Shown here: positions 828 through 42,886 of the stretch, in pieces
Position numbering within the stretch: the stretch's first letter is position 1
How the letters are laid out: each line of letters begins with the position of its first letter
DNA from: Mustelus asterias
Taxonomy: Eukaryota
Assembly: GCF_964213995.1 (NCBI RefSeq)
Contig: NC_135801.1
Span: 155,248,001 to 155,312,000, forward strand
DNA: 64,000 nt
Direction of reading: 5' to 3'
Notes under the pieces: generated by a model
Databases searched by the model: none
What the model was told of the DNA's origin: nothing
What the model saw: only the letters and a program-made list of their open reading frames with translations
Made by a program: the position numbers and the translations under genes

Positions 828-1277
828 ACCTGTGTATTATCACTGGTCTAGCAATCCAGAGACCCAGGGTAATGCTCCGAGGGTTTGGGTTCAAATTCAA
901 TAGAATATCTGGAATTAAAAGTCTATCATGAATATCACGAAACTATTGTCGATTATTGTGAAAAAACCCATCTGGTTCACTAATGTCCTTTCGAGAAGGA
1001 AATCTGCCATCCTTTGGTCTGGCCTTAATGTGACAGTAAGAAGTCTCACAACACCAGGTTAAAGTCAAACAGGTTTACCTCAACCTGTTGGACTTTAACC
1101 TGGTGTTGTGAGACTTCTTACTGTGCTTACCCCAGTCCAACGCCGGCATCTCCACATCTTAATGTGACTCCAGACCCACAGTAATGTGGTTGACTCTCAA
1201 ATGCCCTCTGAAACGGAGGGCTGTTAGGTATGGGGAATAAATGCTGACCCAGCCAACAATGCCCACATCCTGTAAAA
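828..1277 (+). mobile_element. tRNA-derived SINE family B, interrupted by a Penelope-derived insert
   Basis: B-box-like GGGTTCAAAT, core CCCATCTGGTTCACTAATGTCCTT..GAAGGAAATCTGCC, and the same tail as 59432-59795. Confidence 0.75.
1035..1157. mobile_element. Penelope-like (pLTR-derived) foldback element, centrally deleted
   Basis: 43-bp inverted arms (1033-1075 / 1082-1124, one mismatch); flanking direct repeat CTTAATGTGAC (1024-1034, 1158-1168); same arms as 36833-37024. Confidence 0.7.
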
Positions 1278-9630: not shown

Positions 9631-9907
9631 TTCAGGTAGAGCAGCGACTGAACCAACAATGTTGGCATTATTCTGAACCACACACTAGCCAAATGAGCTA
9701 AGCAGCCTCCTCATCACATATTCACTTGTGAATTGTATTGAAACTAGTGTGATAGAGTTGTAGCAGCTGAGCTGTTCAGAATCCAAACACATGACTTTGA
9801 GAAAGTGCCAGCCAAAAGAACCATATTTCAGAGGCAACAATTTGGGTAGCAGTTGGGGGAGGGGGAGAGACCTTATTTGACTTTAAATGTTTTGTTGGGT
9901 TTGGCCC

Positions 9908-10117
9908 AATTTTTTAAAAATACTTTTCCAATTCAGTCAAATCAAGTCCAATTCAGAGTCTCAACAAGTTGAGACATTTCCGATCCAAGCTGACAAGACA
10001 GGGCCTCCACTCCTGTCTTGGGCCTGATCCACATGAGCCAAGCTGATTGGAGTAGGTGCAGACTCACCTCCTCCAAGGCCTGATCTCATCCGCATCTTAG
10101 CCAAAAGGCCGAGACGC
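9908..10117 (-). mobile_element. U2 snRNA-headed short structured retroelement (copy 1)
   Basis: 10094-10114 reverse complement = TCTCGGCCTTTTGGCTAAGAT (U2 nt 7-27); two hairpin modules; body homologous to 42671-42886; A-rich end. Confidence 0.65.
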
Positions 10118-10118
10118 T

Positions 10119-10214
10119 GCTTTTTAAAAATTGCTTCAAATGAAGCTTAAATGTAACCCAATGACCTCAACCAAGTGCAGCCTGTCCACACCACACTTGA
10201 TCTTAGCCAAAGGG
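10119..10214 (-). mobile_element. U2 snRNA-headed short element (copy 2, different body)
   Basis: 10193-10211 reverse complement = TTTGGCTAAGATCAAGTGT (U2 nt 16-34), then about 70 nt of non-U2 body ending TTTTTAAAAA. Confidence 0.55.
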
Positions 10215-10689
10215 GGTTTGACCCAATTGCTCGTCCTACATGTCCAACACTCACAGGGCCAGATTTTCAATGCAGGGTCAAGAATGTGACACCTGTATTC
10301 TGGGTCCCAACCCTTTGCCGGAGCTGTGTCGTTCTCATAATACTAATTTTAAGTTTCTTTTTTTCTTTGATGGGATATGGACATTGGTGACAAGGAGGCT
10401 AGCATTTGTTGCCCATCCCTAATTCCCCATTAAATTTCCTAATTGGGCAGGAGGCCAGTTCAATGCTCAGTTAGTGGCATGAGCACCTCCAGAAAGCTGG
10501 AGCTGCCTGCCTTGCACCTGTGGCAAAGACAGGTGGCGGCTAGGTTGGGGCTTACTACTGTCATGTGAGATAGAGCAGGCAGGTCCTCAGAGGATCAGCA
10601 ACATAAAGGCATGAGAGGAAGTGTGGATGGGCAAAACTAAGATACTGCGCGTGTTCCAGTGTATGAGGCCCCATGATTTTATACATTGA

Positions 10690-28562: not shown

Positions 28563-29014
28563 ATTGATGCAACTATATCCACCTCAAAACACTGGTCCAG
28601 GATTCGAACTGCAAAGGCTGTCAGTTGAAGCAAATATTTGAAGCCCACTAGTCATTTCCTTTTCGGCGATATGCTTGTTTATTTCATCCTTCTGCATACA
28701 CAGAAAGCACAGACAGATTTGTGTTAGCTGGTTGACTACTCTGGCTGTTGAGGTTGACCGACTCCTTTCTGCTTGTATATATTTGACTGCATCAGTAGGC
28801 ATCAATGAAGGCCTCCAGCTGGCTTTAGTCATCAGAATTCTGGATACCCTTCCTGGGAACTTGGCTTTGATTTGAAATGAGCTTTCACTCTTTCTTGGAA
28901 GATGGAGTATCTGACTGTCACGGAACATGGCAACTTGTGTGGGAGAAAGTAAAGGTTAGCAGGAAGATCTATCCTTTCCCTGCTTAGAATCTCTCCTGTT
29001 AGAAACCACATTTA

Positions 29015-29320
29015 AAGCTTATTTATTAGTGTCACAAGTAGGCTTATATTAATACTGCAATGAAGTTACTGTGAAAATCCCCTAGTTGCCACATTCCAGC
29101 GCCTGTTCGGGTACACTGAGGGAGAATTTAGCAAGGCCAATGCACCTAACCAGCACATCTTTCGGACCATGGGAGGAAACCGAAGCACCCGGAGGAAACC
29201 CATACAGACACAGGGAGAACATGCAGACTCCACACAGACAGTGACCCAAGCCGGGAATTGAACCCAGGTCCCTGGCGCTGTGCGGCAGCAGTGCTAACCA
29301 CTGTGCCACCGTGCTGCCCC
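29015..29320 (-). mobile_element. HE1-headed SINE, alternative tail, full length
   Basis: GGGGCAGCACGGTGGCACAGTGGTTAGCACTGCTG head and GGGTTCAATTCC B box. Confidence 0.9.
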
Positions 29321-29537: not shown

Positions 29538-30542
29538 GGGGGGAATTTTACCATTTCGAGTCTAAGTGCCGGATCTGGGCGTCAAATAGATCCGCGCCTG
29601 GAATCCTCTTTCCAGCGCGCCCATACGCGTTTTGCCGGCTCCGGTCCGATCCGCGCTGTGGGCGGGGCTTAGTGCTGGTGGACCGATCGAAGCTCTGAAC
29701 TGCACATGCGCAGTTTGAAAAAAATCTGACAGCGCGCCCGGGCGCGAAAAAAAAAGCAGAAAGCGGAGAGAGCGGCTCTCTGACGTTCATCCTCTGGTCG
29801 AGGGGGTTCCGCTGCCTGTCTGCGGCCGATCCCTCCTGGCACCATCACTGGTACACTACCAGCCACAGCCATCTCTCCCGCTCTCTCGCACCTGCAGGGA
29901 AGAGTAATCTGTTTCTGGTAGTGTACCAGTGATGGTGCCAGGAGGGATCAGCCGCAGACAGGCAGTGGAACCCCCCCAACCAGAGGATGAGACGTCACAC
30001 CCCCTCTCCTCCACCCCCCCCCCAGAGGGTGATATGTCACACCCCCTCCCCTCCCACCCCACCCCCCCCAGGGTATGATCGGTCACACCCCCTCTCCACC
30101 CCCCACCCCCACCCCGCAGGGGATGAGATGTCACACCCCCTCTCCTCCTCCCACCCCCCTCCCGCCCCGACCAGAGGATGACCTGGGTCAGAGAGCCGTT
30201 GCAGTCTCTGACCCCGCTCTTCGGAGGCTGCAACGGCGACTTCAGACTTTTATTTTGCAGTTCGGTAACAGCGCGGACGCGGATTGGGCCAGAAGACGGT
30301 AAAGTGGGATTTGGCGGTAGAGTTCGGCGCGCGGTTCATTAAGTTGATTTAAATGCATGCAAATGCATTTAAATCGTCGGGCCGCCCAATTCGGGCGCGC
30401 GCCGGACCCGTGCCCGAATTGGGTGTCGGTAAAGCCACGATCTGCTCGGAATCGGGTGCAGATCACGTTAAAGGCCCAACGCCCAACTTTACCACGATTT
30501 CGCGCCCGAAAACGGGCACGAAGATTTGGTAAAATCAGGCCC
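29538..30542. mobile_element. Young CpG-rich non-autonomous PIF/Harbinger-type transposon (about 1 kb)
   Basis: TIRs GGGGGGAATTTTACCA / TGGTAAAATCAGGCCC; 3-bp TSD TCT; internal long inverted repeat and minisatellite. Confidence 0.8.
29981..30182. repeat. About 45-bp C-rich minisatellite (about 4 units)
   Basis: Units CAGRGGRTGA...GTCACACCCCCTC(C-tracts). Confidence 0.8.
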
Positions 30543-42670: not shown

Positions 42671-42886
42671 GTTTTTTTTAAATTTATTCCATTCTTAGAC
42701 ACAGAGCCAATGAGCAGAGTGGATGGGGCAAGCCCAAATCCATCTCCTTGCTTGCTCCAAAAACCAATTCAAATTGAATCCAATTCATGGTCCCCACAAA
42801 AGAGACAAACAAGATCCAAGCTGACAAGATAAGGCATTGCACCCCATCTTTGGCTTGATCTGACACTTGATCTTAGCCAAAAGGCC
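42671..42886 (-). mobile_element. U2 snRNA-headed short structured retroelement (copy 3)
   Basis: 42863-42886 reverse complement = GGCCTTTTGGCTAAGATCAAGTGT (U2 nt 11-34); hairpin module 42813-42860; ends AATAAATTT-A8 on the minus strand. Confidence 0.7.

What the first reader, a model, noticed from the sequence alone, without database searches (positions are those of the whole stretch)
9908..10214. U2 snRNA-headed short retroelements: candidate snRNA-derived SINE family in a shark
Seen: three places carry only the 5' part of U2 snRNA on the minus strand (10094-10114 = U2 nt 7-27; 10193-10211 = nt 16-34; 42863-42886 = nt 11-34). Each is followed by a non-U2 body and an A-rich end. Copies 1 and 3, 33 kb apart, share the body (TCTTGTCAGCTTGGATC..GTCTC..TGAATTGGA.T..ATTTGA), so these are not plain U2 pseudogenes. 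Two copies break off at U2 nt 34. Known: Keno (Tx1) and Utopia retrotransposons target U2 genes near this position, and U1/U2-headed SINEs (SINEU) are described from crocodilians. Inference: this is a dispersed non-autonomous family transcribed from a U2 promoter and mobilised by a Tx1/L1-type element. I cannot tell whether it is already catalogued for sharks.
Basis: partly seen in the sequence, partly recalled or inferred. Interest (0 to 1): 0.75.

Follow-up and report, generated by a model that had tools for sequence, protein, structure and literature searches.

The report
U2-built retroposons homing into U2 genes
The window holds two copies of a family of over 8,600 short jumping elements built from pieces of the splicing RNA U2; some copies sit inside real U2 genes at the very site where a U2-targeting retrotransposon inserts, so the family likely borrows the U2 gene's promoter and that retrotransposon's enzymes.

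Summary
'Copies 1 and 2' are one two-headed 302-bp element (family A, 9912-10213) inside a single 15-bp target-site duplication. Copy 3 (family B) has no foreign body: it aligns to U2 nt 40-170, with a ~30-nt insert replacing the branch-point-pairing region. Exact motif counts in the 3.7-Gb genome: 8,630 (shared hairpin), 3,948 (A), 1,245 (B); controls 0. The genome's U2 arrays hold Keno-type Tx1 LINEs inserted before U2 nt 39. Family A sits at the same site, and 6 of 30 Keno tails abut a family-A copy. A second, small U2 gene class (C21) recurs as 5'-transduced DNA in front of dispersed family-A copies of several subfamilies, and full-length copies start exactly at U2 +1. Best reading: a SINEU-like retroposon, likely mobilised by Keno and transcribed from U2 promoters, which addresses Kojima's (2015) open question. 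No RNA evidence; no master copy proven; Repbase/Dfam unchecked; 'shark' not confirmed by a call. The scan noted this family before, in this genome and in others.

The parts
10214..10228 (-). 5' copy of the 15-bp target-site duplication of the family-A element
   Evidence: sequence; score 13, one mismatch
10188..10213 (-). Family A head 1: U2 nt 13-39 (5'-truncated; nt 35-39 mutated here), containing the branch-point-pairing region
10157..10181 (-). Antisense arm predicted to pair with head 1 and mask U2 nt ~26-38; in the most diverged variant seen (L197) it holds an exact reverse complement of U2 26-36
10115..10156 (-). Rest of module 1: small hairpin, T5/A5 run and linker; weak likeness to U4 nt 20-53 in a diverged variant only
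   Evidence: (3 of 400 shuffles for the best of 7 variants tried)
10094..10114 (-). Family A head 2: U2 nt 7-27 (stem-loop I only, ends before the branch-point-pairing region)
10035..10087 (-). Hairpin H2, same frame as H3 (C opposite UCA internal loop); likely a duplicate of H3
9982..10029 (-). Hairpin H3, shared by families A and B; its 3' arm corresponds to U2 nt ~44-62
9958..9975 (-). Hairpin at the place of U2 stem IIb, with changed pairs
9912..9957 (-). Family A 3' end and A/T-rich tail; stops before the U2 Sm site
9897..9911 (-). 3' copy of the target-site duplication
42863..42886 (-). Family B head: U2 nt 11-34
42834..42862 (-). ~30-nt insert replacing U2 nt 35-39; 5' arm of H3; resembles the first bases of the Keno 5' UTR
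   Evidence: family-B majority vs Keno: score 30.5, 1 of 500 shuffles
42691..42833 (-). Diverged U2 nt 40-170: former stem IIa (now the 3' arm of H3), stem IIb, altered Sm site (42757-42765), stem-loop III, part of IV
   Evidence: 0 of 500 shuffles
42672..42690 (-). Family B A-rich tail; no convincing target duplication left at this copy
   Evidence: score 6

Best explanation
These are two related families of short non-autonomous retroposons built from U2 snRNA, with thousands of copies in this genome, likely copied by a Keno-type Tx1 LINE and likely transcribed from the upstream promoter of U2 genes into which source copies have inserted. SHOWN: family, copy numbers, target duplications, two-headed anatomy of A, U2 origin of B's body, Keno in U2 arrays before nt 39, family A at that same site, family A abutting Keno tails, DNA of a minor U2 gene class carried along 5' of dispersed copies, and full-length copies starting at U2 +1. 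INFERRED: (i) the Keno endonuclease/RT makes the insertions; here it is relaxed and mostly cuts A/T-rich sites, but homes to U2 nt 38|39 when it meets one. (ii) When a copy lands in a U2 gene, its own U2 1-39 head is identical to the DNA upstream of the cut, so the 5' junction heals into promoter + U2 1-39 + element, a new source gene transcribed by polymerase II from +1; scattered copies are promoterless and dead. (iii) The type-2 U2 array on C21 has been the main nursery. (iv) Every form neutralises the U2 branch-point-pairing sequence (masked in A head 1, cut off in A head 2, replaced in B), which would limit interference with splicing. (v) Family B began as a U2 gene with a Keno insertion that was deleted internally (Keno's 5' end joined to U2 40+); A arose from it by hairpin duplication, loss of the Sm end and addition of a new U2-headed module.
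For: Copy numbers: (controls 0); BLAST hits on many contigs. Target duplications: family A 14 of 30 loci with score >=10 vs 7.2% of 870 mismatched pairs (three of these include a tandem neighbour's tail). For full-head copies, 11 of 20 score >=8 directly at U2 +1 vs 2.6% of 380 (10 of 30 loci dropped because the 3' end was not located). Identity to majority: 98.4% (window's A subfamily) and 92.8% (B) in best-hit sets of 30. LINE in U2 arrays: ORF1 with RBD_ZCCHC3 + zf-CCHC, ORF2 with APE endonuclease, RT and zf-RVT, followed by U2 39-191; this is the site given for Keno/Utopia in PMC4640811 (passages). Family A tail followed by U2 39-47: 7 places, control 0; 3 of the 7 continue as full U2 39-191 (C14, C21, C24). 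A sits directly behind an intact type-1 U2 upstream region at C24:43060542 (1 locus genome-wide) and behind the type-2 upstream inside the C21 array. The end of the type-2 upstream joined to U2 +1 occurs at 16 places: on C21, 4 intact U2 genes and 2 Keno; elsewhere 7 family A and 3 Keno pieces, none an intact U2. Four of the dispersed loci (C1, C6, C7, C14) are bounded by one target duplication round spacer + element, and the C7 copy is of the window's subfamily. 10 of 638 full-head copies are preceded by the last 4 nt of the type-2 upstream (about 2 expected, my estimate). 6 of 30 Keno tails abut family A. Folding: A z = -6.5 and -7.9; U2 nt 33-38 paired with mean probability 0.77 in 68 A copies vs 0.20 and 0.26 in U2; 0 of 23 B copies keep the branch-point hexamer. 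H3 is 94.9% paired, with 3 of 18 pairs changed on both sides.
Against: No RNA data: neither transcription nor start site was observed. The in-array C21 copy has nearest dispersed relatives at 97-98%, none identical, and the C24 promoter-fused copy is internally deleted, so no present master is shown; arrays may be collapsed in the assembly. U2 pieces (nt ~6-46) were added 5' of truncated copies at C6, C7, C75, C118, C158 and in L039, so template jumping to U2 happens and could also give +1 starts. Several transduced copies begin in the previous U2 unit or in a Keno tail (C1, C8, C14), i.e. from read-through RNA, not from +1. Only 7 of roughly 4,000 A tails are at U2-like sites, and the base profile after the tails shows no U2 motif (4 of 77 start TCT; background 9 of 183). 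Adjacency to Keno tails could partly reflect any L1-clade enzyme cutting A-runs. The likeness of A's 3' end to Keno's 3' UTR is not significant (26 of 500 shuffles). The PSE-like box upstream of type-2 U2 is only a loose by-eye match to U1/U4/U2 upstream regions; MAFFT did not align them. No family-B copy was found behind a U2 upstream region; B has few duplications left (2 of 30) and one B copy did not fold better than shuffles (z -1.5). The H3 alignment was selected on an exact match in the 3' arm, and two of the five pair measures did not exceed shuffles.
Confidence: 0.7

Rival explanations
1. Read-through plus template switching: element RNA comes from longer transcripts (Keno mRNA or an upstream U2 unit reading through, or chance host promoters), and the U2 1-39 head and +1 start are regained during reverse transcription by jumping onto abundant U2 snRNA. 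U2 promoters directly in front of the element play a minor part. Mobilisation is still by Keno/Tx1.
For: Extra U2 6-46 pieces on truncated copies with short homology at the joint; transduced copies that begin in the previous unit or in a Keno tail; Kojima 2015 reports repeated U1 additions to SINEU-2.
Against: Head/body junctions are fixed within subfamilies (nt 39/40 + subfamily-specific arm), whereas the added pieces end at other positions (nt 34, 42, 46). The antisense arm has been kept complementary to the head across some 15 variants, which requires the head in the same RNA. Seamless promoter-head-body units exist in two U2 gene classes.
Confidence: 0.2
2. Classical polymerase III SINE: the U2 head fortuitously supplies an A box and the hairpin start a B box, so every copy can be transcribed.
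For: By eye, the head holds an A-box-like octamer and the start of H2/H3 a B-box-like nonamer (consensus from recall, not tested with a tool); the copy number is higher than SINEU's (7,700, 1,600 and 1,058).
Against: The two boxes start only 18-19 nt apart (about 45 in tRNA, from recall); T4 in each head and T5 runs inside both families would stop polymerase III (same argument in Kojima 2015); the 5'-transduced U2 upstream DNA points to external promoters.
Confidence: 0.05
3. Family B descends from a functional, lineage-specific U2 variant RNA gene, and the copies are merely its processed pseudogenes.
For: B keeps stem I, a IIb-like stem, an Sm-like site and stem III.
Against: The branch-point hexamer is absent in 23 of 23 copies, the Sm site is altered, stem IV is incomplete and followed by an A-tail; no near-identical multicopy gene among the best 40 hits (85-90%); none behind a U2 upstream region.
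Confidence: 0.05

Closest known systems
SINEU-1 of crocodilians (Kojima 2015, PMC4494074; main text parts 1-4 of 5 read; figures and supplements not available)
   Same: Short retroposon with U2-derived head(s), repeated 5' addition of snRNA pieces, dimeric forms, poly(A) end, ~10-bp duplications, internal T runs, Tx1-clade partner.
   Different: Family A homes into U2 genes at the Keno site, not into Mariner-N4; its body derives from U2 via family B; the head is folded back by an antisense arm; it is younger (98% to majority vs 83-92%). Sequence homology could not be tested; independent origin is likely (inference).
SINEU-3 (same paper)
   Same: A rearranged U2 gene: 5' 32 nt plus a middle U2 piece, lacking the part after nt ~32-34; tandem copies separated by a target duplication.
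   Different: SINEU-3 has a ~50-nt deletion; family B keeps U2 40-170 and instead has a ~30-nt insert that re-pairs stem IIa. There are several times more copies.
Keno (Tx1 clade, U2-targeting; known here from passages in PMC4640811 and PMC4494074; the original description was not read)
   Same: The LINE found here has an APE endonuclease and U2 39+ as its 3' flank; family A uses the same site and has a U2 head like this Keno (nt 5-34).
   Different: The elements are non-coding and mostly U2-derived, not simple internal deletions of Keno. This Keno is relaxed: 342 exact tails genome-wide, 0 of the first 30 followed by U2 39+.
R2 elements and their non-autonomous derivatives in 28S rRNA genes (R2 co-transcription cited in PMC4494074; the rest from recall)
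   Same: [quoted passage not shown]
   Different: Polymerase II snRNA promoter instead of polymerase I; thousands of dispersed dead copies; different endonuclease class.

Membership tests
SINEU (snRNA-headed retroposons, as a class) | 5' head derived from U1 or U2 snRNA | tested here: met
   (638 copies with an exact U2 1-10 start plus A junction)
SINEU (snRNA-headed retroposons, as a class) | Short (<500 bp), non-coding, A-rich 3' end, multicopy with shared internal structure | tested here: met
   A about 300-335 bp, B about 215 bp
SINEU (snRNA-headed retroposons, as a class) | Target-site duplications | tested here: met
   A: 14 of 30 vs 7.2%, 11 of 20 vs 2.6%; B weak, 2 of 30
SINEU (snRNA-headed retroposons, as a class) | Shared target preference with a Tx1-clade LINE | tested here: met
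   A at U2 38|39 like Keno; 6 of 30 Keno tails abut A. Not shown for B.
SINEU-1/-2/-3 (the named crocodilian families) | Sequence homology of the body to the SINEU consensus | not testable with these tools
   No supplement held, figures not held, no Repbase
SINEU-1/-2/-3 (the named crocodilian families) | Preference for Mariner-N4_AMi as target | tested here: inconclusive
   Flanks of about 90 A and 60 B loci look unrelated to one another by eye; Mariner-N4 itself was not available for comparison
Classical SINE (polymerase III, internal promoter) | tRNA/5S/7SL head with properly spaced A and B boxes and no internal T-run terminator | tested here: not met
   Only U2 is hit in Rfam; T4 and T5 runs inside both families; box-like motifs 18-19 nt apart (by eye)
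Keno (for the partner LINE) | APE endonuclease + RT, Tx1-type ORF1 | tested here: met
Keno (for the partner LINE) | Inserted in U2 genes with U2 nt 39+ as 3' flank | tested here: met
   compared with PMC4640811
Keno (for the partner LINE) | Strict U2 specificity | tested here: not met
   0 of the first 30 of 342 tails are followed by U2 39+
Keno (for the partner LINE) | RT tree placing it with KenoDr1/KenoFr1 | not tested
   No reference Keno sequences were at hand
Functional U2 snRNA gene | Intact, unpaired branch-point region, stem IIa, Sm site, PSE and 3' box | tested here: not met
   Window copies: 31.3 bits or less vs 190 for true genes; hexamer lost or paired; A-tails and duplications instead of promoter and 3' box

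The most novel reading that the evidence does not exclude
A self-renewing parasite of U2 genes, evolved independently of crocodilian SINEU. It was born from a Keno insertion in a U2 gene that collapsed internally. It uses its U2 head as a homology arm that rebuilds a promoter fusion each time Keno's enzyme homes it into a U2 gene. It breeds mainly in a minor, second U2 gene class that may be germ-line expressed, and its RNA is selected to keep snRNA-like hairpins while disarming the branch-point-pairing sequence. This would be the first located transcription source for snRNA-headed retroposons.
Probability: 0.4. Interest if true: 0.8.

Novelty: new variant of a known kind. Interest (0 to 1): 0.64.

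Why it matters
Kojima (2015) found snRNA-headed retroposons only in crocodilians and left open how elements with a promoterless U1/U2 head are transcribed. This genome shows a larger, younger family in a distant lineage, with candidate source configurations (element directly behind U2 upstream regions), 5' transductions that point to one small U2 array, and an identifiable partner LINE with long open frames (up to 1,144 aa). The question becomes testable by 5'-end mapping and a retrotransposition assay. It also suggests a general route from a target-specific LINE plus its target RNA gene to a new SINE-like class. In practice, thousands of such copies will be mis-annotated as U2 genes: two family-A copies scored above Rfam's gathering threshold (53.5 and 57.8 vs 46).

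Tried and rejected
Sequencing runs: one search was sent with the wrong stretch by my coordinate error (L154:1200-1522 is almost wholly the 3' flank, not the element). Its rows say nothing about the family's distribution or expression and are not used. No reads or contigs were laid on the element, so presence in other species and in RNA stays open. DNA search with promoter + head + body returned only the query locus and true U2 genes among the 40 scored of 1,095 candidates. No family-B copy behind either U2 upstream (one hit, family A; one hit, unrelated flank except 4 nt). Family A 3' end vs Keno 3' UTR: 26 and 125 of 500 shuffles reach the score; B 3' end vs Keno: 45 of 500; module 1 vs U2, Keno 5' or Keno 3': 339, 304 and 104 of 500; A module 2 vs U2 directly: 29 of 500, so its U2 origin rests on homology to B. 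U1 vs family A: 28 of 400, rejected; U4 vs module 1: 3, 31, 43, 94, 191, 257 and 301 of 400 for seven variants, a weak lead only. No U2-like target consensus after dispersed tails. The first-look candidate count of 135,653 for U2 is not a copy number (U4 gave 232,592). Look-up of earlier findings by sequence found nothing. Paper searches: (U2 snRNA+SINE+shark, 5 papers; SINEU, 23; Keno etc., 8) showed no description of this family in the titles and abstract starts listed; (U2 variants in zebrafish) gave nothing usable. Read: PMC4494074 parts 1-4 of 5; PMC4640811 and PMC5381603 passages only; PMC5499810 term search only (no 'snRNA', 'SINEU' or 'Tx1'). Supplements of PMC4494074 were not available and may hold the SINEU sequences needed for a homology test. 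Subscription papers, Repbase Reports and Dfam are outside these searches.

Full report
OBSERVATION. The window is G000:C1:155248001-155312000 in a 3.68-Gb assembly. U2 positions below come from this genome's own U2 gene. The pieces at 10193-10213 and 10094-10114 belong to one element: 28 of the 30 best loci carry both heads with the same module between them, and a single 15-bp duplication encloses 9912-10213. I call this family A. The element at 42672-42886 is family B. Profile searches found no third copy in the window.

COPY NUMBER AND AGE. Exact genome-wide counts: 8,630 for a 16-mer of the hairpin shared by A and B, 3,948 for A's 3' 19-mer, 1,245 for an 18-mer of B's 3' end; reversed patterns gave 0. 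These are lower bounds; correcting for divergence I estimate 10,000-17,000 copies in all (inference). Best-hit sets of 30 are 98.4% (A, window's subfamily) and 92.8% (B) identical to their majority line, so A is young and B older. A has many subfamilies that differ in hairpin loops and stems. Duplications are clear for A (14 of 30 vs 7.2%; 11 of 20 vs 2.6% directly at U2 +1, with 10 of 30 loci dropped) and mostly eroded for B (2 of 30). Tandem copies separated by the duplication are common.

ANATOMY. B is a remodelled U2: nt 1-34, a ~30-nt insert, then U2 40-170 (majority: score 100.5; window copy: 107.5; 0 of 500 shuffles each; closer to type-1 than to type-2 U2), then an A-tail. The insert pairs with former stem-IIa sequence to make hairpin H3 and resembles the first bases of the Keno 5' UTR, which itself follows a U2 5-34 head (1 of 500 shuffles). 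B may therefore be an internally collapsed Keno insertion in a U2 gene (inference, moderate). A consists of module 1 (U2 1-39/40, an antisense arm, a small hairpin, a T/A run) and module 2 (U2 7-27, hairpins H2 and H3, a IIb-like hairpin, a tail ending before the Sm site). A folds far better than shuffles (z -6.5 and -7.9); one B copy did not (z -1.5). In 24 sequences H3 is 94.9% paired, with 3 pairs changed on both sides; three of five measures beat all 500 shuffles and two did not, and the set was chosen on a fixed 3' arm. The branch-point-pairing region (nt 33-38) is predicted paired in A (mean 0.77 in 68 copies, 41 at 0.8 or more; U2 itself 0.20 and 0.26) and absent in 23 of 23 B copies. 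I took the masking idea from earlier notes of this scan and then tested it.

PARTNER LINE. The U2 arrays on C24 (1,833-bp and 8,035-bp units) and C21 contain a two-ORF element with RBD_ZCCHC3/zf-CCHC, APE endonuclease, RT and zf-RVT domains, followed by U2 39-191. PMC4640811 states that the 3' flanks of Keno and Utopia are identical, that the U2 flank starts at nt 39, and that Keno has an APE endonuclease (passages). I therefore call it Keno-type; no tree was built. It is relaxed here: 342 exact tails, and none of the first 30 is followed by U2 39+. Family A occupies the same U2 site: 7 tails are followed by U2 39-47 (control 0), three continuing as whole U2 3' parts. At C24:43063890 the order is Keno tail, U2 39-52, family A, U2 39-191. 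Six of 30 Keno tails abut a family-A copy, mostly sharing its duplication. Against: no significant tail homology between A and Keno, and A-runs could attract any L1-clade enzyme.

SOURCE LOCI. One family-A copy (internally deleted) stands seamlessly behind the type-1 U2 upstream region. A second U2 class (175.5 bits; about 447-bp unit; C21:28.05-28.08 Mb) has its own upstream region, with a loose PSE-like box and a 3'-box-like motif judged by eye; its array is riddled with Keno and holds one family-A copy at the Keno site. The end of this upstream region joined to U2 +1 occurs at 16 places: on C21, 4 intact genes and 2 Keno; elsewhere 7 family A and 3 Keno pieces. At C1, C6, C7 and C14 one target duplication encloses spacer plus element, so these are retrocopied 5' transductions. 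They belong to different subfamilies, the C7 copy to the window's own. Such copies are rare (10 of 638 full-head copies have even the last four upstream bases). In the sample inspected, most full-head copies start at U2 +1 with unrelated DNA, often the duplication, before it, as expected if the usual RNA starts at the snRNA start site. Against: no master is proven (nearest relatives of the in-array copy 97-98%); some transductions begin in the preceding unit; and U2 6-46 pieces were added to truncated copies by template jumping, which could also produce +1 starts.

MECHANISM. The most likely cycle (0.7): a copy inside a U2 gene is transcribed from that gene's upstream promoter from +1; the folded RNA, with its splicing-active sequence disarmed, is taken up by Keno proteins; most insertions go to A/T-rich sites and are dead; a few home to U2 nt 38|39, where the head's identity with the upstream target restores a promoter fusion and founds a new subfamily. 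By step, I put the family at about 0.99, Keno mobilisation at about 0.85 and U2-promoter transcription at about 0.7. Rivals: read-through plus template switching (0.2), internal pol III promoter (0.05), pseudogenes of a functional U2 variant (0.05).

COMPARISON AND NOVELTY. It works like crocodilian SINEU and meets the class features tested. Membership of the named SINEU families could not be tested and is unlikely given a different target and body. Kojima 2015 states that no SINEU was detected outside crocodilians and that transcription is an open question; a 2017 review mentions snRNA-headed SINEs only for crocodilians (passages). Seven searches showed no report for cartilaginous fishes among the listed papers; Repbase, Dfam and subscription papers were not searchable. 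Earlier AI notes of this scan describe the same family in this genome and similar ones in other genomes; they are not independent support. Points I did not see in those short notes: the type-2 U2 class as the recurrent donor, and the Keno-collapse origin of B. The host being a shark is not confirmed by a call; the window's commonest repeat is a tRNA-headed SINE that I recall as HE1-like. Verdict: new variant of a known kind, interest 0.64.

Noticed in passing
G000:C21:28051270-28081816 (L147, L237-L243): A second U2 snRNA class (about 88% identical to the main U2, changes mostly in the 3' half) in a ~447-bp unit with its own upstream region; only about 4-5 intact copies among many Keno insertions. 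Expression unknown.
   Followed up: partly
G000:C24:44.81-44.94 Mb (L091-L096): An 8,035-bp tandem unit (U2 gene + broken Keno with a short repeat inserted in ORF2 + U2 39-191) amplified about 16 times: a dead LINE spread by array homogenisation.
   Followed up: partly
L101:2125-2331, L102-L104: Type-1 U2 array units with tandem reiterations of U2 nt ~19-37 replacing part of the branch-point/stem IIa region, present in several units.
   Followed up: no
L236 (G000:C18:36.50 Mb), L197: Diverged forms: a module-1-like monomer behind a diverged type-2 upstream region, and an A variant whose arm holds an exact reverse complement of U2 26-36 and is weakly U4-like.
   Followed up: partly
L302:1520-1950: Keno tail followed by an inverted family-A copy and an inverted Keno tail, a head-to-head arrangement.
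   Followed up: no
window 29815-29962: ~150-bp near-perfect inverted repeat (MITE-like); Rfam miRNA hits below the gathering score.
   Followed up: no
window 1040-1117: Palindrome formed by two inverted copies of a common repeat end; chance miRNA hit.
   Followed up: no
window, e.g. 29011-29320 and about 15 other places: Dominant tRNA-headed SINE of ~310 bp (HE1/V-SINE-like from recall).
   Followed up: no
G000:C8:4.7-19 Mb and C3:116.9 Mb: Keno tails also cluster near the U1 (C8) and U4 (C3) gene loci in the listing; not examined.
   Followed up: no
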